A stretch of DNA of 64,000 nt from Escherichia phage vB-EcoP-XT32. The notes below the pieces were generated by a model that was given only the letters and a program-made list of their open reading frames with translations, had not been told where the DNA came from and did not search any database. A program made the position numbers and the translations under genes. Position 1 is the stretch's first letter. Each line of letters begins with the position of its first letter. Location: the sequence record OR757435; one strand, given 5' to 3'. Shown here in pieces: positions 47,040-62,391 of the stretch.

Positions 47040-47522
47040 TTAGGTAGTTAATTTATGATCTTCCTCCGCTCTGTTTCTAACAGAGACGGCTTCCTCTAGG
47101 GTTGAGAAAGTTCCTAGGTATTTAGTTTTACCTCTAATATGTATGTTGGCTATGTACTTCCCTCTTGAATTGAGGTATACGCCCTTAGCTCCTGATGTGT
47201 TGTTAGAGTTCAAACCCTTGTTCCAAGAATTATTCTCGTTGTTAACTTCTCTAAGGTTGCCTATGGAATCGTTGGAAGGGTTTCGATCAATGTGATCTAT
47301 TTGATCTTTAGGTAAAACACCATTAGCAAAATACCAAATGATGTGGTATCTGTAAATGGCTCTTCCTTTCAATCGAATAAGCACTCTTCCATCCTTTTTT
47401 GAAGTTCCTGCCTCGTCACCCCGCCTGCATTTTGTTCCGTTGTGAATTCTCCAGAACACTTTCCCAGATGATAAATCACAAACAAAGAACTCATCCAGAA
47501 GATCTTCTATCATATCATGCAA
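47040..47522 (-). CDS. HNH homing endonuclease with AP2-type DNA-binding domain
   Basis: QIDHIDRNPSNDSIGNLREV (HNH) plus SGAKGVYLNSRGKYIANIHIRGKTKYLGTFSTLEEA (AP2-like). Confidence 0.7.
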   Translation of the reverse strand: MHDMIEDLLDEFFVCDLSSGKVFWRIHNGTKCRRGDEAGTSKKDGRVLIRLKGRAIYRYHIIWYFANGVLPKDQIDHIDRNPSNDSIGNLREVNNENNSWNKGLNSNNTSGAKGVYLNSRGKYIANIHIRGKTKYLGTFSTLEEAVSVRNRAEEDHKLTT

Positions 47523-48917: not shown

Positions 48918-50762
48918 TTAGTGAGTTTGCATCCAATTCAATCCGATTTTACAATCAGAAGCTAGTTCACAGTGCATGTTTAGATATTCACCTGCCTTCT
49001 TAACACAAGTCTCAGCTATCTTCTTCATTTTATCAACGTCGTTACGGTTGACAGACCACTGTGCTTCATCATGATAATCGATCACTTTGTTTCCTCTAAT
49101 ATTCTGCTGCTCTACCCATTTGTTTGTAAACAGAATAGAGTACTTCATGACAATGGCACCTGCACTCTGAAGTAGAGTATTCAGTGCTTTATGCACCATA
49201 ACCTTACCAGTAGCATCTCGTCTCATAGTTAACTTACGACCATCCACACCTTCCAAAGTGCCTGATTCCGCTCGGGCCTGAACTCTCTCCAGTACGATAG
49301 GAATACAAGGACATTCCGCTAAGAATCGCTCTCTAAGAATTTCACCTTCTTGAGCACCCCCTCCAACTATTTCCCCAATTTTAGCTGCTCCTGCTCCATA
49401 CAGGAATCCATAGATGAAGGTTTTTGCATTGTCACGAGTTGGAAGCCCAGCGAGTTTCTGATTGTGGGAATGAATATCACCAGACAGCAGTACATCTCTG
49501 TATGTATAGGCAGCTTCTAAGCCTTTCTCAGCTCTTAGATATTTAACTTTGTCATTTTCTAGTTTAGCCTCCTCCATCATATCAAGGCACTCTTTTACTA
49601 GATAATGTACCAGCATACGCAACTCTAACCCAGAACCATCATACCCTAAGAATACTTCTTTACCAGCGGGTATGTAATATTTGTAAGCACCTACAGGCTT
49701 ATCTTTCTTCCCCGGCTTACCTTTCTCGTAAATTACGTTAGTACCTTTTCGTATATAACAACCATCAGGAACAACGTTAGTAATAACGAAAGGACGAGAG
49801 TGATCATCATCTGAGTTATAGTCAGACTCAAACAAACTGCGACACTCATGACCAAACAAACCACGGGAGGGAATATTAACCACGATACGATGTTTGAATC
49901 GAAAAGTCGGCGTAGCGCAGCTGTTAGCTTCTGCCGAAAGTTTACCATCTTCGCGTTCCTTTGCTATTAGTCCACTGATAAGACCTAGCCTGTGAGCCGC
50001 TACAACGCGTCTCTTAAGCAAACTTCCGACACTTCCTAACTCACCCCCTAACCCTTCTTCAAGAGTCTCCTCGAGGTTTGTAGGAGCTGTAGGCCACTTG
50101 TTTGAGGTAGCTAGTGCTATCTTAATCTCGTCAAAAGTGATAGGTCTACGTCGGTTAGGATTTAAACCTAAACCAAATACATAAGCCTTCATATAGTTCT
50201 TAGTCTTAAACCTAAAATGCTTTTCTAAGAACTTCCTAATATCAGCGTCAACCATCTCGGCTGTCTGCTTCTGTTTAGCATTACCTCGCATCCAAGCTGA
50301 ATACCATGCTTGGTATGTTCCATACTTTCGCATATCTTTCTTGATTTCAAAAGTATTCCAAGGTTTCTTTGATACGTTAAACTCTGGAGGAAGAAAACCC
50401 TCATCCATAAGGGCTTCTTTAACTCGTGCATCTTTCGATGGGTCAAAGTCTACGTATTCAACACAGGTGAATGCTCCACCAATGTCTTCTCTCTTAAGTC
50501 CAACTCTATCACAATAGGCTTGAGGCCATTTCTGTAAAGCTCCAGACTTCTTAAATGGTTTCATGTAAGTAGAGCCATCTAATCGCATCTTAGGTAAGAG
50601 AGGAATCAGTTCTTTGTCAATATTAACAATAATCTCTTTAAGGAGGTGAACATACCACCGAGCATTTCTTCGGTTGAAACTCACTCCGTGCTTCGCTTGC
50701 TTAGAGATTATATCAGCGACAGTCATCTCTGTCAAAAATGGGAGAGCGTCCGGGTTGCTCAC
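48918..50762 (-). CDS. DNA polymerase, family A (T7-like), polymerase domain only
   Basis: Motif A DGSGLELRMLVHY, motif B RDNAKTFIYGFLYGAG, motif C HDE; lacks 3'-5' exonuclease motifs, which are encoded at 60053..60607. Confidence 0.85.
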   Translation of the reverse strand: MSNPDALPFLTEMTVADIISKQAKHGVSFNRRNARWYVHLLKEIIVNIDKELIPLLPKMRLDGSTYMKPFKKSGALQKWPQAYCDRVGLKREDIGGAFTCVEYVDFDPSKDARVKEALMDEGFLPPEFNVSKKPWNTFEIKKDMRKYGTYQAWYSAWMRGNAKQKQTAEMVDADIRKFLEKHFRFKTKNYMKAYVFGLGLNPNRRRPITFDEIKIALATSNKWPTAPTNLEETLEEGLGGELGSVGSLLKRRVVAAHRLGLISGLIAKEREDGKLSAEANSCATPTFRFKHRIVVNIPSRGLFGHECRSLFESDYNSDDDHSRPFVITNVVPDGCYIRKGTNVIYEKGKPGKKDKPVGAYKYYIPAGKEVFLGYDGSGLELRMLVHYLVKECLDMMEEAKLENDKVKYLRAEKGLEAAYTYRDVLLSGDIHSHNQKLAGLPTRDNAKTFIYGFLYGAGAAKIGEIVGGGAQEGEILRERFLAECPCIPIVLERVQARAESGTLEGVDGRKLTMRRDATGKVMVHKALNTLLQSAGAIVMKYSILFTNKWVEQQNIRGNKVIDYHDEAQWSVNRNDVDKMKKIAETCVKKAGEYLNMHCELASDCKIGLNWMQTH

Positions 50763-53972: not shown

Positions 53973-54187
53973 TTAACAACCTTAAATTTGAATGTTGTTG
54001 GGTGATAATAATGCAACCTGTTAATGGTGTGCTTTGTTTCAAGATATATCCTACAAGAGTGACACATAACATGAGACAGACCAGTTACAGGATTAGGTTT
54101 GAAGTTGATGATAGTCTTCTCTTTCTTACAGAAGCTACACACTTTATGTGTCATTAACTCTCCAAAGTTTTCTTCAGAGCTGCCCAC
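53969..54187 (-). CDS. hypothetical zinc-finger small protein
   Basis: CSFC ... CHSC motif. Confidence 0.4.
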   Translation of the reverse strand: MGSSEENFGELMTHKVCSFCKKEKTIINFKPNPVTGLSHVMCHSCRIYLETKHTINRLHYYHPTTFKFKVVK

Positions 54188-54801
54188 GAGATTGGGTAGA
54201 GTTTAGCCATCTCTTCATCCAGAGATTGAGCAAACACTCGAACTTCATACTGAGCATGGGAGGATAGTCGCTGACGACACAACTCAAACCAGCCATACAA
54301 AGAACCAGTCCAGTACCAAGTAGTTACCATACCTTGAGGTAAAACAAATCTAGCCTGTTCAGGAGCTACGAACTTAATTAATTCATCATAACTAGCAAGA
54401 GATGCCTCATATGCAGAGTTAAACAAAGCTAAAGCCTTTACCTCTTCATCTCCTTCAAGGAGTGTTCCAGAACCCGAATGTAGATCATCGGGGCGAGAGA
54501 AGATTTCTTTAGGTATAAAAATATCCACTGCTCCATCTTTATATCTACGACTCATCTCATTCCAAGAAAAACCAACTTGATGCTTCTGTAGCTGACGTGC
54601 AATTGCTATAGGGGCTTCGCATCTGAAGCTAGCTTGTGGGTGGCGAAAAGGGCTTACGTGTCGCTCTCGAGCTAGGAAGTTAATAAGCCGAGTATCACTT
54701 TCTTTCAACTCCTCTCTTTCTACCCCCATAGTCACACGAGCAGCATTGACCACAGTAAGGTCGGAACCGAAGTTATCAATTAGTGAAGCTTTGATTGTCA
54801 T
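54154..54801 (-). CDS. thyX: flavin-dependent thymidylate synthase ThyX homolog (divergent signature)
   Basis: HVSPFRH ... APIAIARQ ... KHQVGFSWNEMSRRY ... FIP and VLPQG...W...SHAQ align with ThyX; canonical RHR of the RHRx7S motif reads KHQ here. Confidence 0.7.
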   Translation of the reverse strand: MTIKASLIDNFGSDLTVVNAARVTMGVEREELKESDTRLINFLARERHVSPFRHPQASFRCEAPIAIARQLQKHQVGFSWNEMSRRYKDGAVDIFIPKEIFSRPDDLHSGSGTLLEGDEEVKALALFNSAYEASLASYDELIKFVAPEQARFVLPQGMVTTWYWTGSLYGWFELCRQRLSSHAQYEVRVFAQSLDEEMAKLYPISWAALKKTLES

Positions 54802-55267
54802 TTATATAAGTCTCCTTGACTTTATTATATGCTTTAGAGGCTTCTTCTATAGTTGAGAAGAGTCCTATGTGCTTAGATTTGAATACCGCCCGGTAAGCAA
54901 TAGAGCCACTTTTCCTTCTATGAAGAGTTACTCCAATCACTCCGGTTGATAAGTTGTTACTTTGGGCTATTTTGTTGAGTCCATTCCCTGACCTAGTAGT
55001 CCCTCTAAGGTTCTCTCTTTTGTTATTTAGTCTGTTGCGGTCTACATGGTCCACTTCTTCAGGAAGCAATCCAGTGTCCCACCAGTAAGCAAGTCGATGA
55101 GCATAATACCTAACACCTTTATAAACGATTCTCAAATACCCGTTGGTATTTATAGAACCAGCTATAGACCCTTTGCGCCCTTTTCCATAAGTTTTAACCC
55201 ATCGGAAATCTCCAGTCAAAGGGTCATAATCAAGAGCTTCTTTTATTGATGGATCAATATCATTCAT
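54776..55267 (-). CDS. HNH homing endonuclease with AP2-type domain
   Basis: EVDHVDRNRLNNKRENL (HNH) plus TGVIGVTLHRRKSGSIAYRAVFKSKHIGLFSTIEEA (AP2-like). Confidence 0.7.
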   Translation of the reverse strand: MNDIDPSIKEALDYDPLTGDFRWVKTYGKGRKGSIAGSINTNGYLRIVYKGVRYYAHRLAYWWDTGLLPEEVDHVDRNRLNNKRENLRGTTRSGNGLNKIAQSNNLSTGVIGVTLHRRKSGSIAYRAVFKSKHIGLFSTIEEASKAYNKVKETYINDNQSFTN

Positions 55268-55282
55268 CCGTGAATTTCCTTA

Positions 55283-55492
55283 TTAATATTCTTTTACATA
55301 ACAAACCACTAAGGTTCCCTTCTCTGACAATGTTGATTTATGTAAGCTTACTTTACTATAAATCTTTGGAGACATCTTAAGAGCCTTCTTAAAACGGCGA
55401 GCATCTTTACGAGTAGCAAAGTGCTCTGTAACAGGTATAGCCGGGTCTTGGTAGAGGTAATATACCACCGTCCAATATTTTTTCATAATCAA
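55283..55492 (-). CDS. hypothetical small protein (MKKxW paralog family)
   Basis: MKKYWTVVYY ... ATRKDARRFKK shared with 57448..57962 genes. Confidence 0.4.
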   Translation of the reverse strand: MIMKKYWTVVYYLYQDPAIPVTEHFATRKDARRFKKALKMSPKIYSKVSLHKSTLSEKGTLVVCYVKEY

Positions 55493-55761
55493 ACACCTAG
55501 GGCAGTAGTTAAGAATGCTTTCAGGTTTGCTTCGGTCTGCATACCAGAGAGACTATAGTGTGCACCACTATTACGGTCAGGTACAACGAAAGCAGGGATG
55601 CTTCTTACACCATACTTAACAGCTTGTTCACGACCATCACCTTCAAGGATGTTAATCTCTTCTACTTCTACATCGAACTCCTTAACAACCTTCTCAAAGG
55701 TAGGAGCCATTGCTTTACATGGAGCACACTGATCGCTATAAAACTTAATCACTTTAGACAT
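55489..55761 (-). CDS. thioredoxin-like protein
   Basis: Start set to ATG 55761 (AAGGAA RBS); CAPC active-site motif at the thioredoxin position (YSDQCAPCKAMAP), cis-Pro context SIPAFVV. Confidence 0.7.
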   Translation of the reverse strand: MSKVIKFYSDQCAPCKAMAPTFEKVVKEFDVEVEEINILEGDGREQAVKYGVRSIPAFVVPDRNSGAHYSLSGMQTEANLKAFLTTALGV

Positions 55762-55762
55762 T

Positions 55763-55939
55763 CTATTCCTTGTTAATAAACAGGTTGATATGACGTTGGG
55801 TAGCAGGAACAACAATAAAAGATTTATACTGACCTTTTGCTAAGTCATGAGCAATCTTCTTTGTTTGACCAAGACCCATCACACAGCCACTAACGATAAT
55901 GGCATGTGCTTGTAATTCTTCAGGTAGGTTTAGTTTCAC
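55763..55939 (-). CDS. hypothetical small protein (58 aa)
   Basis: GTG start with AAGGAAA RBS; stop 1 nt before the thioredoxin start; below ORF-track cutoff. Confidence 0.25.
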   Translation of the reverse strand: MKLNLPEELQAHAIIVSGCVMGLGQTKKIAHDLAKGQYKSFIVVPATQRHINLFINKE

Positions 55940-55951
55940 TCTTTGGTTTCC

Positions 55952-56137
55952 TTATAGCATACAAAGAATAATAACAAGAGGTAGTGTTATAGCAAAATGT
56001 ACCAGAACAACACTGCCTAGCTTGATAGCTTTAACATCCTCTTCTGCTGGGTTTTCTTTAATTGCTAAATTTCGAGCTTTATATATAACAGTACCAACTA
56101 TTAACGACCACACGGCCCACACAATCAGTGAAATCAT
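55952..56137 (-). CDS. small two-helix membrane protein (paralog A)
   Basis: 61 aa with two hydrophobic segments; paralogous to 56147..56326. Confidence 0.45.
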   Translation of the reverse strand: MISLIVWAVWSLIVGTVIYKARNLAIKENPAEEDVKAIKLGSVVLVHFAITLPLVIILCML

Positions 56138-56146
56138 ATCAAACCC

Positions 56147-56326
56147 TTATGCAGTCAGGAGGTGAAGCAGGAATGGGATAACAACAGCTACGACAACCAT
56201 GATGGTTGATGCTGTTTGAATCTCACCTTTCTTGTCAGGAGTTTCTTCAATAAGCTTGCCAGAAGCCCAATAGATACCACCACCAATAAAGACAGCCCAA
56301 ATACCCCATACGATTGCTGATAACAT
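56147..56326 (-). CDS. small two-helix membrane protein (paralog B)
   Basis: ATG 56326; MLSAIVWGIWAVFIGGGIYWASGKLIEETPDKKGEIQTASTIMVVVAVVIPFLLHLLTA; in a different frame from track ORF 56188..56442. Confidence 0.4.
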   Translation of the reverse strand: MLSAIVWGIWAVFIGGGIYWASGKLIEETPDKKGEIQTASTIMVVVAVVIPFLLHLLTA

Positions 56327-56387: not shown

Positions 56388-56951
56388 TTAGTAAGACACA
56401 TCGCCACTTGAGTGGGACATGTTGCTCTTGACGAAGTAGCAATACTTGCCAAGACCTTCATTAATTTCTTGAAGCATACTCTGATCAACTGGATAAGTGG
56501 CTAAATCACCATCAAACTCATCCATCTTCTCAATAATACACATCAAGGTCATGCACATATCAGAGAGCATACCGTCCATATCTAGGTCAGCATTACCCTC
56601 TGAGAACCAAGCATGGGAGAGATAATTGGCTGCTGTGGCGTCCACTTTAACACAGTGGTAACGCATACGTTCAGCAATACGATCTCCTACTTGTCGTGCG
56701 TAATCTTCCAGCTCATCAAACATACCATGAACACCCTGAAATCCTGCACCAGAGACGTTCCAATGGTAGTTTTTAGCTTTGATATGCAAGAGTTCTATGT
56801 TAGCTTGTAAGCAGCTCAGGATGTGTTCTAGGCTGTTTCCACTAATCATACCCTGCATTGTTTCAAGGCGAGAGATTGAAAGCTCTGATCGGTCTAACAT
56901 ATTATATTCGGCACGACCAATCTCAGGTAAATCAAAAACATTCTTATGCAT
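56388..56951 (-). CDS. dps: Dps-like ferritin-fold protein
   Basis: LHIKAKNYHWNVSGAGFQGVHGMFDELEDYARQVGDRIAERM matches the Dps signature (KN.HWNV.G..F..VH..FDE ... D.IAER); start codon is 2 nt from the N-run, so upstream context is unknown. Confidence 0.65.
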   Translation of the reverse strand: MHKNVFDLPEIGRAEYNMLDRSELSISRLETMQGMISGNSLEHILSCLQANIELLHIKAKNYHWNVSGAGFQGVHGMFDELEDYARQVGDRIAERMRYHCVKVDATAANYLSHAWFSEGNADLDMDGMLSDMCMTLMCIIEKMDEFDGDLATYPVDQSMLQEINEGLGKYCYFVKSNMSHSSGDVSY

Positions 56952-56952
56952 T

Positions 56953-57447
56953 NNNNNNNNNNNNNNNNNNNNNNNNNNNNNNNNNNNNNNNNNNNNNNNN
57001 NNNNNNNNNNNNNNNNNNNNNNNNNNNNNNNNNNNNNNNNNNNNNNNNNNNNNNNNNNNNNNNNNNNNNNNNNNNNNNNNNNNNNNNNNNNNNNNNNNNN
57101 NNNNNNNNNNNNNNNNNNNNNNNNNNNNNNNNNNNNNNNNNNNNNNNNNNNNNNNNNNNNNNNNNNNNNNNNNNNNNNNNNNNNNNNNNNNNNNNNNNNN
57201 NNNNNNNNNNNNNNNNNNNNNNNNNNNNNNNNNNNNNNNNNNNNNNNNNNNNNNNNNNNNNNNNNNNNNNNNNNNNNNNNNNNNNNNNNNNNNNNNNNNN
57301 NNNNNNNNNNNNNNNNNNNNNNNNNNNNNNNNNNNNNNNNNNNNNNNNNNNNNNNNNNNNNNNNNNNNNNNNNNNNNNNNNNNNNNNNNNNNNNNNNNNN
57401 NNNNNNNNNNNNNNNNNNNNNNNNNNNNNNNNNNNNNNNNNNNNNNN
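56953..57447. other. assembly gap (495 N)
   Basis: Continuous run of n characters. Confidence 1.
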
Positions 57448-58165: not shown

Positions 58166-58699
58166 TTACACACCTTTAGATGCAACTACACCTTCAGAGT
58201 TATTATAACGCCCCTTCACTGCATAGGAATGTTCCCCTGCATGAGAGTGCTCAAACATCACCATCTGACCAACACGCATACCAGCACGAACTCGTAAACT
58301 GTGGTGCTTGGTTACGTTATGGAATTCAAATGTCAGCTTACTGCTATTAAATCCTGCATCTGCCCAACCGGCGTGAAGGTGGTTCAAACCACAACGAGCC
58401 ATAGACGAACGCAGAACAAACAGACTTGAGATGTTATCTGGAAGATTAAACTCCTCCATGGAGTGAGCCAAGAAGAACTGACCCGGAGTGATAACCAAAC
58501 CCTCTTCAGGAATTTTTACTTCCTTCCACTGAAGATTTTCTTTCGCATCAATATCAACGATGCCATCAGCCTGTTCTTCAACAAGGATAGTATCACCAAT
58601 ACGGATATCCACACTAGCAGCGTTAACATACTTATGCTCCGCATCCAGATAGCCATTATCAATTACATCGTGTAGTTCAACACTTCCTAGTAAACTCAT
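58166..58699 (-). CDS. dcd: dCTP deaminase
   Basis: AASVDIRIGD, HAGWADAGFNSSKLTFEF and C-terminal YNNSEGVVASKG match the Dcd signature (VD.RLG, GW.D.G..G...LE, Y..QQGAVASR). Confidence 0.75.
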   Translation of the reverse strand: MSLLGSVELHDVIDNGYLDAEHKYVNAASVDIRIGDTILVEEQADGIVDIDAKENLQWKEVKIPEEGLVITPGQFFLAHSMEEFNLPDNISSLFVLRSSMARCGLNHLHAGWADAGFNSSKLTFEFHNVTKHHSLRVRAGMRVGQMVMFEHSHAGEHSYAVKGRYNNSEGVVASKGV

Positions 58700-58708
58700 T
58701 TTTATTCC

Positions 58709-59785
58709 TTAGTTATTTGTTTCCATGTCAAAAGAAAATCCACGACCCGCTTCATCGGCAAACCGAACTGTACGGGTTTGAGGCTCTAATACTTCAGGGT
58801 TGTTAGCAACAAACCGATCAGCGAGACTTTGGTTGACAGTTTCAGCGAGTTCCCCATGAGAGGGAATATTAAGATCGGCGAGATTATCAACCACATCTTG
58901 GGCCACGTCTTCATCAGTCCATACAGCCCTAACAGGTGCGTTGAAACTCTGACCAGAGAACTGGTGACGGCTAACAGTCAAACCATTTGATTGACCATTA
59001 GAACGTCTAGACAACCACTGCTCAAATGAATCGCCAGTAACACCAAGAGCTTCTTCAAAAGATGTTCTACGAGTAGAGCTTAGATTTCGTGCTTCGTTTG
59101 CTCGACGTCTTGCAGGGGCTACAAACACCCCTTCAACTGCATTGTGCCGATTAGGTTCATCTTCTCGACCAAGGAGATCTCCTCCTGTATTAGTTGTTAA
59201 GTTTGTCAACCCTTCAGACCAATATGCACGAATCTGGCTAGAGCCGTGAATGATTGACATTAACTGAATCTCTTCATAAGGGATTCCAAAGAATATACTC
59301 ATGTCTCGGTTAACACAATATTGAGCACTTGTTGTATCCTCAATAAGAGAAACCTGACCTAATCCACTAACCAGATGACTAACTGGCTGAGGTGTAGGAA
59401 GGTATCGAGTTTGGGCCATATATTGATATGCAACAGATGGAGCTGAGAATCTTAACACTTGTGAATTAGGCCACTTTTTGTGAACGTATCTGATTTCACG
59501 ACTAGAAACAACCACCGGGCAAGGAGCGGTCATAGCCAAATATCCATGAGGAGTCATGAATAGGTTTTCAAGGGTCATCGCACCACGACACATCATAGGA
59601 AAATTATCCAATACCTCTTCGATAGAAGTGGGATAATTAAACATGAATTGGATTCGAGTTCCCTGCCACTGAAATTCAATGATATCAGTGAATGTTAATT
59701 GGGAAGTTCCTGTATATGGTTCATCTGTAGTTTCAGCAAGAAGAGATGAATACTCAATATCTTGTGACTCTAGCCACTCTTTCAC
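58709..59785 (-). CDS. hypothetical protein (358 aa), partner of the upstream nucleotidyltransferase
   Basis: GTG start in ATGA-type overlap with the NTase stop; no ATG in frame upstream; no recognised motif. Confidence 0.45.
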   Translation of the reverse strand: MKEWLESQDIEYSSLLAETTDEPYTGTSQLTFTDIIEFQWQGTRIQFMFNYPTSIEEVLDNFPMMCRGAMTLENLFMTPHGYLAMTAPCPVVVSSREIRYVHKKWPNSQVLRFSAPSVAYQYMAQTRYLPTPQPVSHLVSGLGQVSLIEDTTSAQYCVNRDMSIFFGIPYEEIQLMSIIHGSSQIRAYWSEGLTNLTTNTGGDLLGREDEPNRHNAVEGVFVAPARRRANEARNLSSTRRTSFEEALGVTGDSFEQWLSRRSNGQSNGLTVSRHQFSGQSFNAPVRAVWTDEDVAQDVVDNLADLNIPSHGELAETVNQSLADRFVANNPEVLEPQTRTVRFADEAGRGFSFDMETNN

Positions 59786-60051
59786 ATTGCTTTCAATCTC
59801 ACGCCCAAGAGCTTGCCACTGAAAGTGTTTTGAGTTCTTGGTGTCTGTCCTCTGACAATAAAGATATCGATGTCATGAGGTGCTATGTTATTAAGAACAG
59901 CGTCACGAACAGCCCCACCAGTAATGATGGGACAGATACCATCTGGAATCAAGTTGTTGTTAATCAGCTGTTCAATGAAGTGACGACCGACAGTGATATC
60001 AGGTTGTTGAGCAACCTTATCTTCAATTCGGTTAATCGGGATAACAATCAT
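59782..60051 (-). CDS. pol-beta-superfamily nucleotidyltransferase (CCA-adding/poly(A) polymerase-type head motif)
   Basis: GGAVRDAVLNNIAPHDIDIFI matches the GGxVRD...DxD signature of class II tRNA nucleotidyltransferases; ORF stops 24 aa after the motif. Confidence 0.5.
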   Translation of the reverse strand: MIVIPINRIEDKVAQQPDITVGRHFIEQLINNNLIPDGICPIITGGAVRDAVLNNIAPHDIDIFIVRGQTPRTQNTFSGKLLGVRLKAM

Positions 60052-60052
60052 T

Positions 60053-60607
60053 TTACATTTTCCAATATAATGAAGGTGGGTCGTAAGGGTCAAATCCTGT
60101 GAGTTCACACAAGTATTTATAAACCTTAACGGTTAAGTTAACGTCCTGTTCACAGTAAGTAAACATATCTTCAGTGAAAGCATCCCATGCTTCCTCTTGC
60201 TCACCGTAGTCTCCTTTAAGTTCCTCTAAGAACTCACCCCATTGCTTCAAACCATGACCTCTTGGGCCATGTCTAGGGTCACCTTTCGGATACTCAGGAC
60301 TGTCACCAATACGGTCAGGTTTAAGATATCGACTAAGACACAAGGTGTCGAAGACGTTAAAACGATAGTCGATCAGATTGGGATACATCTTCTTCAGAGC
60401 ACAAAGGTCGAAGTCAATAATATTATGACCTACGAGCACATCAGCTTCTGTAAGTTTACGAACCCCATCTTCAATTTGGTGAGGCCGATAGCCCCACCTT
60501 TCACCAGTTTCAACATCGAAGATGTAAATACACCATACTTTAGTTATGTCATCGTATAGTGCATTACTCTCGATATCAAAAGCAAACACTTTCTTTTTCT
60601 TTACCAC
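60053..60607 (-). CDS. 3'-5' proofreading exonuclease domain of T7-like DNA polymerase, separately encoded
   Basis: Exo I FDIESNAL, Exo II HNIIDFD, Exo III YCEQDV; alignable along its length with the T7 gene 5 N-terminal domain. Confidence 0.75.
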
Positions 60608-62391
60608 GGTGAAGCTCCATCTGCTTGATTGACGAGAGAAGCTGCATCCTCTCCGTTAGTCAAAACGAATGGATTATCTTCATCAACTTCAAAGTCTTCC
60701 CTTTCTACAAGTCTACCGGTTTCGCTGATATACTTAGTATAGCAGACACCTGTCTGACCGTAGTTACGTTCTTTCAGTAATCGAATGACTGAGAGGTTCT
60801 TAGCTAAGCCGTCAGCTTGCTTGTCACGCTCAAAGCCAATGATACACTGACACCAACGCATAAGGGAACGAGAGCCAGTGAACTGTACTTCACGTACCTG
60901 TCCACCTTCTTCGTGAGGAGCACCACCTGCCGGAGCATTAAGGTGAGATAGCACGAAAGCGGTAAAGTCTAACTCTTTACACATACCAGCAAGCTCTGAA
61001 GCAATCTTACTGATCTCAGTGTTAATCTCTGAAGGTGTTAAATGAGATACCAGAGCGGTAATGTTATCGAGGATGATGAACTTACACTGGTTTTCAACTA
61101 CCCAGAAACGGATACACTGTTTAATGTCTTCCCATTCGTTCTGCCCGAAGTTGTCATACAAGAAGAATTTGTCTGCATAACGAAGTGCTTCATTACGCAA
61201 ATCCTCTTCATCATATTCAACATCTGGTCGGTGGAAAGGAATTGATGCTGACTTACCAGCGATGTTCTTAACAGACATGCCTACCTTCTCTTCCAAGAAG
61301 AAGCCACCTCCATTAAAACCATGCTCTAAGCACAGATGAGCAACCAGCTCGTGAGCAATTAGTGTTTTACCACTACCTACACCACCACCGATGGCTACCA
61401 CCTCTCCCCATCGAATACCGAAGGTCATCTCATTCAGAGTCTTCCACGGATATGGAATACCCCACTCCGCTTTCTTCAGAGCATCATCAAGGCAATCAAA
61501 GATTGTTACAGCACCAGCAGGAGATTCCCGCTTTGCTGAATACTTGAGAATGTTGAATAACTCTTGACCACGACCAGACAGAAGCATGTCATTCGCATCC
61601 TTAATCTCTTTCTCCACACCGTTGTATGGGAAAGTTCCTTTAGGAATACGAGCAAACTTGACATGAGGGAATAAAGAACGACCTTTTGTTAAAGCTATCT
61701 CACCTGCATCGTCATTGTCCATGCAGAGCACAACCTCCTCAAAACCATTTACGAAGTCTCGATTACGAGACAACACAGAAGAGATTGAACCTGCACCGAA
61801 CGGTAAAGAAACACATGCTGGCTTAATATTTGTTGCATTTGTAAAAGCTGTAAGGACATGGAAACCAGACATACAAGATAGCGGGTCTTCAAAAATAAAC
61901 AGCTTCTTGTTGTACACATCTCCACGTTGAGCTTGTGCCATACCAAATAAGTCTGCTTCTTTCACACTGCCAACGTAATAAAACTTCTTACTATCTAGCA
62001 GCTTAACCTCGTAACCAACAATGTTTCCATCACGTTCACGAGGAAAGAAGTAGCTGTCTGGAGTCTGACCATCAGTCTGACTTAGACCAATGCGACACTC
62101 AAAACGCTCTGATACAGCTTTAGGGATTAAACGTCGAGTAAGTTCACCCTGAGGAAGCTCTAAGCAATCATCTAAGACTTCTCTTAACTCTTCAGGGGAT
62201 AACTCTTTCTTCTCATTTGGAGTAGGTGTAGTGCCCTTTTCGAACACTTCGTAATTCCCACAACGGTTACAACTTCCCCACTCCTCACCTGTCTCTTCGT
62301 TACGGAAGAGAATCATGTGGTTGTGGGTTTTATCACGACCATGAGAGATACATTCCTTACAACCTGTGTCTCCCAAAATGATCTTTGACAT
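60601..62391 (-). CDS. primase-helicase (T7 gp4-like)
   Basis: N-terminal Cys4 zinc ribbon (CKEC ... CNRC), TOPRIM-like acidic region, helicase Walker [10 protein letters not shown]; AAGGAGG RBS. Confidence 0.85.

What the first reader, a model, noticed from the sequence alone, without database searches (positions are those of the whole stretch)
55489..55761. Thioredoxin gene beside T7-type replication genes: possible self-supplied polymerase processivity factor
T7 DNA polymerase uses host thioredoxin as its processivity factor. This phage encodes its own thioredoxin-like protein (CAPC motif) in the island between the exonuclease and polymerase genes, and the polymerase protein is about 100 aa longer than the T7 polymerase domain, leaving room for a thioredoxin-binding insertion.
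Basis: inference. Interest (0 to 1): 0.5.

Follow-up and report, generated by a model that had tools for sequence, protein, structure and literature searches.

The report
Phage thioredoxin gene in a Kuravirus
The small thioredoxin gene is real and already annotated in this known group of E. coli phages; whether it clamps the phage's T7-like DNA polymerase (an idea published in 2021) or is simply a redox enzyme remains untested, and the comparative evidence leans slightly towards redox.

Summary
The window is a Kuravirus (phiEco32-like E. coli podophage; 99.9% identical to vB-EcoP-XT18). ORF 55489-55761(-) is a genuine 90-aa thioredoxin: Pfam E 2.5e-13, CAPC site, AF2 pLDDT 93, TM 0.8 to E. coli TrxA. 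It is annotated in many relatives and was seen by mass spectrometry in SU10.

The processivity idea was already published as an untested hypothesis for this phage group (PeerJ 2021).

In favour: the 614-aa polymerase is a T7-clade enzyme. It has a 46-49-aa insertion exactly at the T7 thioredoxin-binding site, and the thioredoxin-contacting strand is conserved (T7 E319/T327/V329/E330 = E92/T99/V101/E102).

Against:
- The extra ~100 aa lie mostly in three other insertions.
- The same thumb insertion occurs in relatives with no thioredoxin gene (LUZ24-like phages).
- All orthologues keep CxPC and the cis-proline.
- The gene travels with Dps, ThyX and dCTP deaminase.
- In relatives that encode a ribonucleotide reductase, small thioredoxin-like or glutaredoxin genes lie next to it.

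Best reading (0.45): a redox-active thioredoxin supporting dNTP supply or DNA protection, with the thumb loop an ancestral feature that may recruit host TrxA. Self-supplied clamp: 0.3. No complex could be modelled here. Already known; moderate interest.

The parts
55489..55761 (-). Thioredoxin gene: 90 aa, C12-A-P-C15 active site, cis-Pro56, and no N-terminal beta1-alpha1 of E. coli TrxA.
55767..55771 (-). AAGGA ribosome-binding site 5 nt upstream of the thioredoxin ATG. The upstream ORF stops at 55763-55765.
   Evidence: Read directly from the sequence.
48918..50762 (-). DNA polymerase, polymerase domain only (614 aa), T7 clade of family A.
50451..50597 (-). Codons 56-104 of the polymerase: an insertion at the site of the T7 thioredoxin-binding domain. 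It includes the conserved docking strand (codons 92-102, 50457-50489).
   Evidence: BLASTP HSP with E 7e-5 to gp5 residues 293-362. hhalign. Conserved across the clade. AF2 pLDDT about 90.
50094..50360 (-). Codons 135-223 of the polymerase: a second insertion with no T7 counterpart. It is helical and strongly basic (19 K/R against 8 D/E), and it is shorter in the relatives that lack the CxPC thioredoxin.
60053..60607 (-). Separate 3'-5' proofreading exonuclease subunit (184 aa). It corresponds to the N-terminal domain of T7 gp5.
   Evidence: Pfam PF01612. phmmer matches to gp5 and to relatives.
60601..62391 (-). T7 gp4-like primase-helicase (596 aa). Its C-terminal tail is acidic and ends ...DGASPW.
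56388..56951 (-). Dps-family ferritin-like protein. It is a conserved neighbour of the thioredoxin gene in this phage group.
   Evidence: Pfam Ferritin. Solved Dps proteins at E about 2e-9. Synteny.
54154..54801 (-). Flavin-dependent thymidylate synthase ThyX, close to the thioredoxin gene here. In L084 and in a crAss-like phage it lies directly after the thioredoxin gene.
58166..58699 (-). dCTP deaminase, part of the same nucleotide-metabolism block.
55763..55939 (-). 58-aa ORF of unknown function (phrog_19504) immediately upstream of the thioredoxin gene and coupled to it.
55283..55492 (-). 69-aa ORF of unknown function (phrog_4939) that overlaps the thioredoxin stop codon.

Best explanation
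The gene encodes a minimal but catalytically intact thioredoxin. It belongs to the nucleotide-metabolism and DNA-protection block of the phage (dCTP deaminase, PhoH, Dps-like protein, ThyX).

Inferred mechanism: host thioredoxin reductase keeps it reduced, and it passes electrons through its CAPC dithiol to disulfide-cycling enzymes. The most likely target is the host class Ia ribonucleotide reductase, because Kuraviruses encode none of their own; in relatives that do encode one, the phage enzyme would be the target. It may also contribute to peroxide defence alongside the phage Dps. Either way it would raise dNTP supply and protect replicating DNA.

On this reading the polymerase's T7-like thumb insertion is an ancestral feature of the whole polymerase clade and does not depend on a phage thioredoxin. 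If it binds a thioredoxin at all, host TrxA, which has all the T7 contact residues, is at least as good a candidate.

Shown here: the fold, the active-site conservation, the synteny, the phyletic pattern, and the presence of the thumb insertion in relatives without a thioredoxin gene. Inferred: the redox activity, its targets, and the absence of binding to the polymerase.
For: 1. C-x-P-C, the following Lys, the cis-Pro and the Gly92 equivalent are kept in all 15 database homologues and in orthologues down to about 40% identity, including 7-11, L085, L087, L092 and L003. (The annotated Privateervirus ORF starts after the CxxC motif, so it is uninformative on that point.)
2. The protein is closest to bacterial Trx1 in sequence and fold.
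3. Conserved neighbours are Dps, ThyX, dCTP deaminase, PhoH and, in some relatives, a stand-alone ATP-cone protein. This holds in Kuravirus, 7-11, Privateervirus and four metagenomic contigs, despite rearrangements.
4. A thioredoxin of this family lies 10 nt upstream of ThyX in an unrelated crAss-like phage.
5. In relatives with a class Ia ribonucleotide reductase, a small thioredoxin-like or glutaredoxin gene lies directly beside it: BUCT695 nrdB-nrdA-trx, L089, L088.
6. The TBD-like insertion and its docking motif are present in every polymerase of the clade examined, including phages with no thioredoxin gene. Examples are Teru (whole genome, hmmsearch E<=10), L086, L093 and L094. No Pseudomonas phage appears among the named groups of the 140 thioredoxin tblastn hits, although 107 carry this polymerase.
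7. Precedent: for cyanophage Syn5, the phage thioredoxin is redox-active, and AF3 docks the host thioredoxins, not the phage one, on the polymerase (bioRxiv 10.1101/2025.10.05.680603).
8. The residue matching E. coli Lys90, the proposed partner of T7 E319, is Leu, and Gly74 is Ser.
Against: 1. Kuraviruses encode no ribonucleotide reductase, so the canonical phage partner is missing, yet the protein stays 98-100% identical while the polymerase diverges to 88%.
2. E. coli already has abundant TrxA and glutaredoxins, so the benefit of one more reductant is not obvious.
3. The active-site surroundings are atypical for a working Trx1: Asp26 is Lys, Trp28 is Tyr, and Trp31 is Gln and varies between orthologues.
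4. The T7 docking strand on the polymerase is strikingly conserved, and the thioredoxin keeps the Arg73, Ile75, Pro76 and Gly92 equivalents, so T7-type binding is sterically plausible.
5. The synteny argument is weakened by shared ancestry, because the whole replication module is collinear in these phages.
6. No redox assay or interaction test could be run.
Confidence: 0.45

Rival explanations
1. Self-supplied processivity factor. The phage thioredoxin binds the TBD-like thumb insertion of the phage polymerase as E. coli TrxA binds T7 gp5. It orders the basic thumb-tip elements over the duplex and raises processivity, and it makes the phage independent of host trxA, whose loss gives T7 resistance.
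For: - The insertion is at the exact TBD site, and T7's thioredoxin-contact strand is conserved: E92, T99, V101, E102, with Pro at the P325 position in the family consensus.
- The thioredoxin is of Trx1 type and keeps the Arg73, Ile75, cis-Pro76 and Gly92 equivalents.
- Kuraviruses have no ribonucleotide reductase.
- Thioredoxin and polymerase are both among the few genes shared by all C3-morphotype phages (PMC4281155; PMC7881722).
- The thioredoxin is 98-100% conserved.
- In the sampled loci, a CxPC thioredoxin co-occurs with the long form of the basic second thumb insertion.
- In five relatives the thioredoxin has Lys or Arg at the K90 position and the polymerase has Glu or Asp at the E319 position.
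- The primase-helicase has a T7-like acidic tail ending in an aromatic residue.
Against: - The thumb insertion and motif are equally present in relatives without any thioredoxin gene.
- The link between thioredoxin and the long insertion coincides with a single clade split, so it may reflect one evolutionary event. BUCT695 has the long form with only a reductase-adjacent CQTC thioredoxin-like gene.
- The gene is not adjacent to the polymerase gene in any genome examined; it keeps company with Dps, ThyX and dCTP deaminase.
- The strict retention of both cysteines is not required for the T7 role (established knowledge: Cys-less TrxA still supports T7 polymerase, though it binds more weakly).
- In this window Lys90 is Leu and Gly74 is Ser.
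- Syn5 is a precedent against.
Confidence: 0.3
2. The thioredoxin is a specific partner of the flavin-dependent thymidylate synthase ThyX or of the Dps-like protein. It might keep ThyX cysteines or flavin chemistry functional, or remove the peroxide made by the ThyX oxidase side reaction together with Dps. This would be a new thioredoxin-ThyX-Dps module.
For: - Thioredoxin and ThyX are directly adjacent in L084 (19-nt gap) and in crAss-like phage cr128_1 (10-nt gap). In Kuravirus they are separated only by a 67-69-aa ORF, plus an HNH insertion in this window.
- In the sampled polymerase-clade loci where a thioredoxin or glutaredoxin was seen, ThyX was usually present too. The exceptions are Privateervirus, L092 and L093, where no ThyX was seen in the stretch examined. 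Three loci lack both.
- Dps is a constant neighbour.
Against: - No biochemical link between thioredoxin and ThyX is known, and none was found in the literature search.
- Privateervirus and L092 have thioredoxin and Dps but no ThyX in the stretch seen.
- The sample is small and the loci are phylogenetically related.
Confidence: 0.1
3. Another redox-independent recruitment, such as a virion-assembly role like host thioredoxin in filamentous phage f1, or a counter-defence role.
For: Thioredoxin is known to be co-opted structurally by T7 and f1 (established knowledge). The protein was abundant in the SU10 particle preparation, which also contained other non-structural proteins.
Against: There is no supporting context. 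The gene is in the middle (replication) gene block, not the late block. The active site is strictly conserved.
Confidence: 0.05

Closest known systems
T7 gp5 DNA polymerase with E. coli TrxA as processivity factor (PDB 1T7P)
   Same: - Same polymerase clade.
- Insertion at the same thumb position.
- The thioredoxin-contacting strand is conserved (E319/T327/V329/E330 = E92/T99/V101/E102).
- gp4-like primase-helicase with an acidic tail.
- The phage thioredoxin superposes on TrxA (TM about 0.8).
   Different: - The exonuclease is a separate polypeptide.
- The insertion is about 24 aa shorter, and most of T7's region of basic loops (residues 275-314, from my own knowledge of the T7 literature) is missing.
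- There is a second, basic 89-aa thumb insertion that T7 lacks.
- The thioredoxin would be phage-encoded, lacks beta1-alpha1, and differs at D26, W28, W31, G74 and K90.
- Binding has not been tested.
Phage redoxins that serve ribonucleotide reductase (T4 NrdC thioredoxin; NrdH and glutaredoxin genes next to nrdAB)
   Same: A small phage-encoded CxxC redoxin inside a nucleotide-metabolism block. Relatives of this phage have thioredoxin-like or glutaredoxin genes directly beside nrdAB (BUCT695, L089, L088).
   Different: This phage encodes no ribonucleotide reductase. The motif is CAPC (Trx1-like), not CVYC, CVQC or CPYC. The target would have to be the host enzyme.
Cyanophage Syn5 thioredoxin (bioRxiv 10.1101/2025.10.05.680603)
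   Same: A phage with T7-type replication genes that carries its own thioredoxin, posing the same question of clamp versus redox. There the phage protein is redox-active, and AF3 docks the host thioredoxins on the polymerase instead.
   Different: Syn5 encodes a ribonucleotide reductase and this phage does not. The host, phage family and polymerase architecture (fused versus split) also differ.
Thioredoxin of C3-morphotype phages (phiEco32 'thiol-disulfide isomerase and thioredoxin', SU10 gp65, Privateer QIN94863)
   Same: The same gene family. The window's protein is about 98-99% identical to the phiEco32 and SU10 proteins over the aligned 88 aa. The processivity hypothesis was stated for Privateer in PMC7881722.
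   Different: Nothing substantive. This window is another member of a sequenced genus.

Membership tests
Thioredoxin (PF00085, bacterial Trx1 type) | Thioredoxin fold (central beta-sheet flanked by helices) | tested here: met
   AF2 pLDDT 93 with beta-alpha-beta-alpha-beta-beta-alpha topology. Foldseek TMq about 0.8 to E. coli TrxA. Pfam 50.3 bits against a cutoff of 23.5.
Thioredoxin (PF00085, bacterial Trx1 type) | CxxC active site at the N-terminus of helix 2, and a cis-proline loop | tested here: met
   C12-A-P-C15 and I55-P56 align with C32-G-P-C35 and I75-P76 of TrxA, and are invariant in the homologues.
Thioredoxin (PF00085, bacterial Trx1 type) | Canonical W-C-G-P-C motif, buried Asp26, and N-terminal beta1-alpha1 | tested here: not met
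   The motif is Q-C-A-P-C, Asp26 is Lys6, and Trp28 is Tyr8. The alignment starts at TrxA residue 21-24, so beta1-alpha1 is absent.
Thioredoxin (PF00085, bacterial Trx1 type) | Disulfide reductase activity; reduced by thioredoxin reductase | not testable with these tools
   Needs an insulin or DTNB assay with E. coli TrxB.
T7-type polymerase-thioredoxin processivity system | T7-clade family A polymerase | tested here: met
   hhalign probability 100%. Foldseek top hits are T7 DNA polymerase structures at E about 1e-25.
T7-type polymerase-thioredoxin processivity system | Insertion between thumb helices H and H1 (the thioredoxin-binding domain) | tested here: met
   46-49 aa at the same position, against about 70 in T7 and almost none in the most distant family A polymerases of the alignment.
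T7-type polymerase-thioredoxin processivity system | Conserved thioredoxin-contact residues on the polymerase | tested here: met
   E92, T99, V101 and E102 correspond to T7 E319, T327, V329 and E330. P325 is Ala here and Pro in the family consensus. The contact list comes from PMC5984650.
T7-type polymerase-thioredoxin processivity system | Basic loops of the domain that contact DNA and the helicase tail | tested here: inconclusive
   The insertion has a net charge of only +4 and lacks most of T7's loop region. However, the adjacent insertion 2 has a net charge of +11.
T7-type polymerase-thioredoxin processivity system | The insertion is coupled to the thioredoxin that is claimed to bind it (here, the phage gene) | tested here: not met
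   The same insertion and motif occur in phages without a thioredoxin gene: Teru, L086, L093 and L094.
T7-type polymerase-thioredoxin processivity system | Tight 1:1 complex and thioredoxin-dependent processivity | not testable with these tools
Ribonucleotide-reductase-linked phage redoxin (NrdC, NrdH, Grx type) | Encoded beside, or together with, phage ribonucleotide reductase genes | tested here: not met
   There is no reductase in the window or in the annotated Kuravirus genome. The feature is met in relatives BUCT695, L089 and L088.
Ribonucleotide-reductase-linked phage redoxin (NrdC, NrdH, Grx type) | Located in a nucleotide-metabolism gene block | tested here: met
   dCTP deaminase, ThyX and PhoH lie within a few kb. 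This is conserved in 7-11, Privateervirus, L084, L085, L087 and L092.

The most novel reading that the evidence does not exclude
The phage thioredoxin is a dedicated, virus-encoded subunit of the replicative polymerase. It would dock on the conserved T7-like strand (residues 92-102) and, together with the basic second thumb insertion, close over the DNA. That would be the first virus-encoded thioredoxin clamp, and it would free the phage from the host trxA dependence that makes T7 vulnerable.
Probability: 0.28. Interest if true: 0.6.

Novelty: already known. Interest (0 to 1): 0.33.

Why it matters
If the phage protein really is a polymerase subunit, it would show that thioredoxin recruitment, a textbook host-factor dependency of T7, has been internalised by another phage lineage. 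That would explain why host trxA loss would not protect against these phages, some of which are candidates for phage therapy. It would also offer a compact new processivity module for engineered polymerases.

If it is a redox enzyme, it adds to the case, now under study in cyanophages, that phage thioredoxins mainly serve dNTP supply. It would also raise the narrower question of what a thioredoxin does in a phage that has no ribonucleotide reductase. Either way the question can be settled with a few simple experiments on phiEco32, SU10 or the BASEL phages Bas91 and Bas94.

Tried and rejected
- **Complex prediction.** I built a Trx-(GGGGS)7-polymerase fusion with a block alignment. The tool also returns no coordinates or PAE, so docking could not have been read anyway.
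- **Polymerase scan of viral contigs**. It returned mostly distant T7-like polymerases; only L003, L005 and L006 were useful.
- **Thioredoxin scan of viral contigs**. It found 16 loci. The non-Kuravirus ones showed no ThyX, Dps, ribonucleotide reductase or polymerase with single-sequence phmmer. Sensitivity was too low to conclude anything.
- **Literature.** The phiEco32 genome paper (PMID 18294652) is not held. No paper links trxA to Kuravirus. No paper links ThyX functionally to thioredoxin.
- **Covariation** between the polymerase docking strand and the thioredoxin surface. Only about 10 pairs were available, which is too few, so I treat it as suggestive at most.
- **Stand-alone ATP-cone protein next to Dps in Kuravirus.** Not found: Paul gp070 has no Pfam hit and no similarity to the 7-11 ATP-cone protein.
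- **Dps-like protein as a disguised ribonucleotide reductase small subunit.** Rejected: it matches solved Dps proteins.

Full report
**What the window is.** An 8-kb stretch around the finding is 99.9% identical to Escherichia phage vB-EcoP-XT18 and 88-98% identical to many phiEco32-like phages (genus Kuravirus, subfamily Gordonclarkvirinae, C3-morphotype podophages of about 77 kb). The region is the middle (replication) gene block, all on the minus strand. In order it holds:
- the primase-helicase (60601-62391);
- a separate 3'-5' exonuclease subunit (60053-60607);
- a nucleotidyltransferase;
- dCTP deaminase (58166-58699);
- small ORFs;
- a Dps-like protein (56388-56951);
- the thioredoxin (55489-55761);
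- an HNH endonuclease;
- ThyX (54154-54801);
- an NAD-ligase-like fragment;
- PhoH;
- the polymerase domain (48918-50762).

**Checking the observation.** The ORF is exactly as described.
- It is 90 aa, starts with ATG, has an AAGGA ribosome-binding site, and is coupled to the upstream ORF.
- It scores Pfam Thioredoxin E 2.5e-13 and PHROG 'thioredoxin domain'.
- A profile search of the PDB puts bacterial Trx1 proteins first (E about 1e-15).
- The AF2 model (pLDDT 93) is a minimal thioredoxin fold.
- The model superposes on E. coli TrxA at TM about 0.8, including the TrxA chain of the T7 polymerase complex.
- It is 31% identical to TrxA and begins at TrxA strand beta2, so beta1-alpha1 is missing.
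- Relative to TrxA, Asp26 is Lys, Trp28 is Tyr, Trp31 is Gln, Gly33 is Ala, Gly74 is Ser and Lys90 is Leu. Cys32, Pro34, Cys35, Arg73, Ile75, cis-Pro76 and Gly92 are kept.
- The gene is annotated as thioredoxin in phiEco32, NJ01, SU10, Paul and others, and the protein was detected by mass spectrometry in SU10.

**The polymerase.** BLASTP against T7 gp5 gives 30% identity over the palm and fingers. A second HSP (E 7e-5) aligns residues 72-134 with gp5 residues 293-362, the C-terminal half of the thioredoxin-binding domain plus the following helix. Profile alignment (hhalign, probability 100%) and an AF2 model (pLDDT 92.7; best Foldseek hits are T7 polymerase structures at E about 1e-25) confirm a T7-clade enzyme whose exonuclease domain is a separate gene.

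Between the helix ending '...ELIPLLP' and the conserved 'FDPSK' motif (T7 'FNPSS') there are 46-49 residues here. T7 has about 70, and the most distant family A polymerases of the alignment have almost none. So a thumb insertion exists at the thioredoxin-binding position.

A molecular-dynamics study of the crystal complex lists the T7 residues that contact thioredoxin as E319, P325, T327, V329, E330 and Y265 (PMC5984650). In both alignments E319, T327, V329 and E330 fall on E92, T99, V101 and E102. P325 is Ala here but Pro in the family consensus (...E-V-G-G-P-F-T-x-V...).

The extra ~110 residues come from insertions at about 135-223 (89 aa, helical, net charge +11, placed by my reading of the alignment in the loop after the helix that follows the first insertion), 313-363 and 391-416. 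The TBD-like element itself is shorter than T7's.

**Is the thumb insertion tied to the phage thioredoxin?** No.
- The insertion and its docking motif are conserved throughout the polymerase clade, down to about 36% identity.
- Pseudomonas phage Teru (Bruynoghevirus, LUZ24-like) has the same layout of primase-helicase, exonuclease and polymerase, and the same insertion. No thioredoxin was found in its complete genome.
- No Pseudomonas phage appears among the named groups of the 140 thioredoxin tblastn hits, although 107 Pseudomonas phages carry this polymerase.
- Metagenomic relatives L086, L093 and L094 have no thioredoxin within 10 kb. L088 and L093 have a glutaredoxin instead; in L088 it sits beside nrdAB.

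There is one correlation. The polymerases of phages with the CxPC thioredoxin are the 600-614-aa type with the full second insertion, whereas those lacking it (529-566 aa) have a shorter one. This coincides with a single clade split. BUCT695 has the long form but only a 76-aa CQTC thioredoxin-like gene beside its nrdA. I therefore treat the correlation as a lead, not evidence.

**What the thioredoxin gene travels with.**

| Phage or contig | Local gene order |
|---|---|
| Kuravirus | Dps - small ORF - Trx - small ORF - ThyX |
| L084 (polymerase 64% identical) | Dps - Trx - ThyX, directly adjacent, with NrdD/NrdG further on |
| Salmonella phage 7-11, L085, L087 | dCTP deaminase - PhoH - Trx - small ORFs - ThyX - (Dps; not detected in L087) - ATP-cone |
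| Privateervirus, L092 | dCTP deaminase - Trx - small ORF - Dps - ATP-cone; the phage encodes a class Ia reductase |
| L089 | 72-aa thioredoxin-like gene between nrdD and nrdB-nrdA |
| BUCT695 | nrdB - nrdA - thioredoxin-like |
| L088 | glutaredoxin - nrdA - nrdB |
| crAss-like phage cr128_1 (unrelated) | a thioredoxin of this family 10 nt upstream of ThyX |

The Dps-like protein is a true Dps homologue. Every orthologue whose N-terminus is available keeps C-x-P-C, and all keep the cis-proline. This is the pattern of a redox enzyme in a nucleotide-metabolism and DNA-protection block.

**What remains in favour of the clamp idea.**
- Kuraviruses have no ribonucleotide reductase, yet the thioredoxin is 98-100% conserved while the polymerase drifts to 88%.
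- The protein is of Trx1 type, not NrdH or glutaredoxin type.
- The docking strand on the polymerase is conserved.
- The thioredoxin keeps the Arg73, Ile75, Pro76 and Gly92 equivalents.
- A phage that carries its own clamp would escape trxA-null resistance.

The same polymerase features are equally compatible with recruitment of host TrxA, which by definition has all the T7 contact residues. For cyanophage Syn5, a recent preprint found the phage thioredoxin to be redox-active, and AF3 docked host thioredoxins on the polymerase but not the phage one.

**Prior art.** Corban & Ramsey (PeerJ 2021, PMC7881722) noted that the thioredoxin is conserved in all C3 phages and explicitly hypothesised that it couples with the T7-like polymerase to improve processivity.

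**Verdict.**

| Reading | Confidence |
|---|---|
| Redox-active thioredoxin serving dNTP supply (host NrdAB) and/or peroxide defence with Dps; the thumb insertion is ancestral and independent of it | about 0.45 |
| Self-supplied processivity factor | about 0.30 |
| Specific partner of ThyX or Dps | about 0.10 |
| Other recruitment | about 0.05 |

I could not model the complex, and the discriminating tests are experimental. Novelty: already known, both the gene and the hypothesis. This analysis adds four points: the residue-level match to the T7 docking strand, the finding that the insertion does not depend on a phage thioredoxin, the mapping of the extra polymerase length to other insertions, and the Dps/ThyX/reductase gene context.

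Noticed in passing
window 58709-60051 (-): The nucleotidyltransferase gene between dCTP deaminase and the exonuclease is a single 447-aa ORF in phage Paul. In the window it lies in two reading frames: residues 1-92 in one frame and 82-433 in another. The break is near 59790-59820. It could be a frameshift, a sequencing error or recoding.
   Followed up: partly
window 54776-55267 (-): An HNH_3 homing-endonuclease ORF sits between ThyX and the 69-aa ORF next to the thioredoxin gene, overlapping the start of ThyX. It is absent from this position in phage Paul. A second HNH ORF lies at 47040-47522.
   Followed up: partly
window 56954-57447: A run of 494 N masks the gene just upstream of the Dps-like gene. 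Its counterpart is Paul gp070, phrog_10984, which is conserved in C3 phages and of unknown function.
   Followed up: partly
window 55952-56137 and 56147-56326 (-): Two tandem, similar ORFs of 59-61 aa that look like hydrophobic membrane proteins lie between the thioredoxin and Dps genes. They have no counterpart at this position in phage Paul.
   Followed up: no
L098 12122-14756; proteins P0013-P0017; L113 11974-14443: In some relatives (KBNP1711, several metagenomic Kuraviruses, Aeromonas phage BUCT695) the polymerase-domain gene is itself split into pieces of about 450 aa and about 100-160 aa. In BUCT695 an endonuclease gene lies between the pieces.
   Followed up: no
L090 11292-11591; L091 10035-10331; L085 5665-5937; L087 7426-7716; L092 6220-6516: A stand-alone ATP-cone protein of 90-99 aa (the allosteric domain of ribonucleotide reductases and NrdR) follows the Dps-like gene, or ThyX in L087, in 7-11, Privateervirus and related contigs. 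This includes phages where no reductase was seen nearby. It is not detectable in Kuravirus. It might act on host reductase regulation.
   Followed up: partly
window 50094-50360 (-), polymerase residues 135-223: This is a strongly basic (net +11), confidently folded helical insertion in the thumb that T7 lacks. Together with the TBD-like insertion it adds about 135 aa to the thumb. It could give intrinsic DNA clamping or bind the acidic helicase tail.
   Followed up: partly
window 60601-60735 (-), primase-helicase C-terminus: The tail is acidic and ends in an aromatic residue (...[32 protein letters not shown]). This resembles the T7 gp4 and gp2.5 tails that bind the polymerase.
   Followed up: no
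L095 5998-7137; L084 1322-2332: A thioredoxin of this family lies directly upstream of ThyX in a crAss-like phage (10-nt gap) and in a Kuravirus relative (19-nt gap). This recurring adjacency has no known biochemical rationale.
   Followed up: partly
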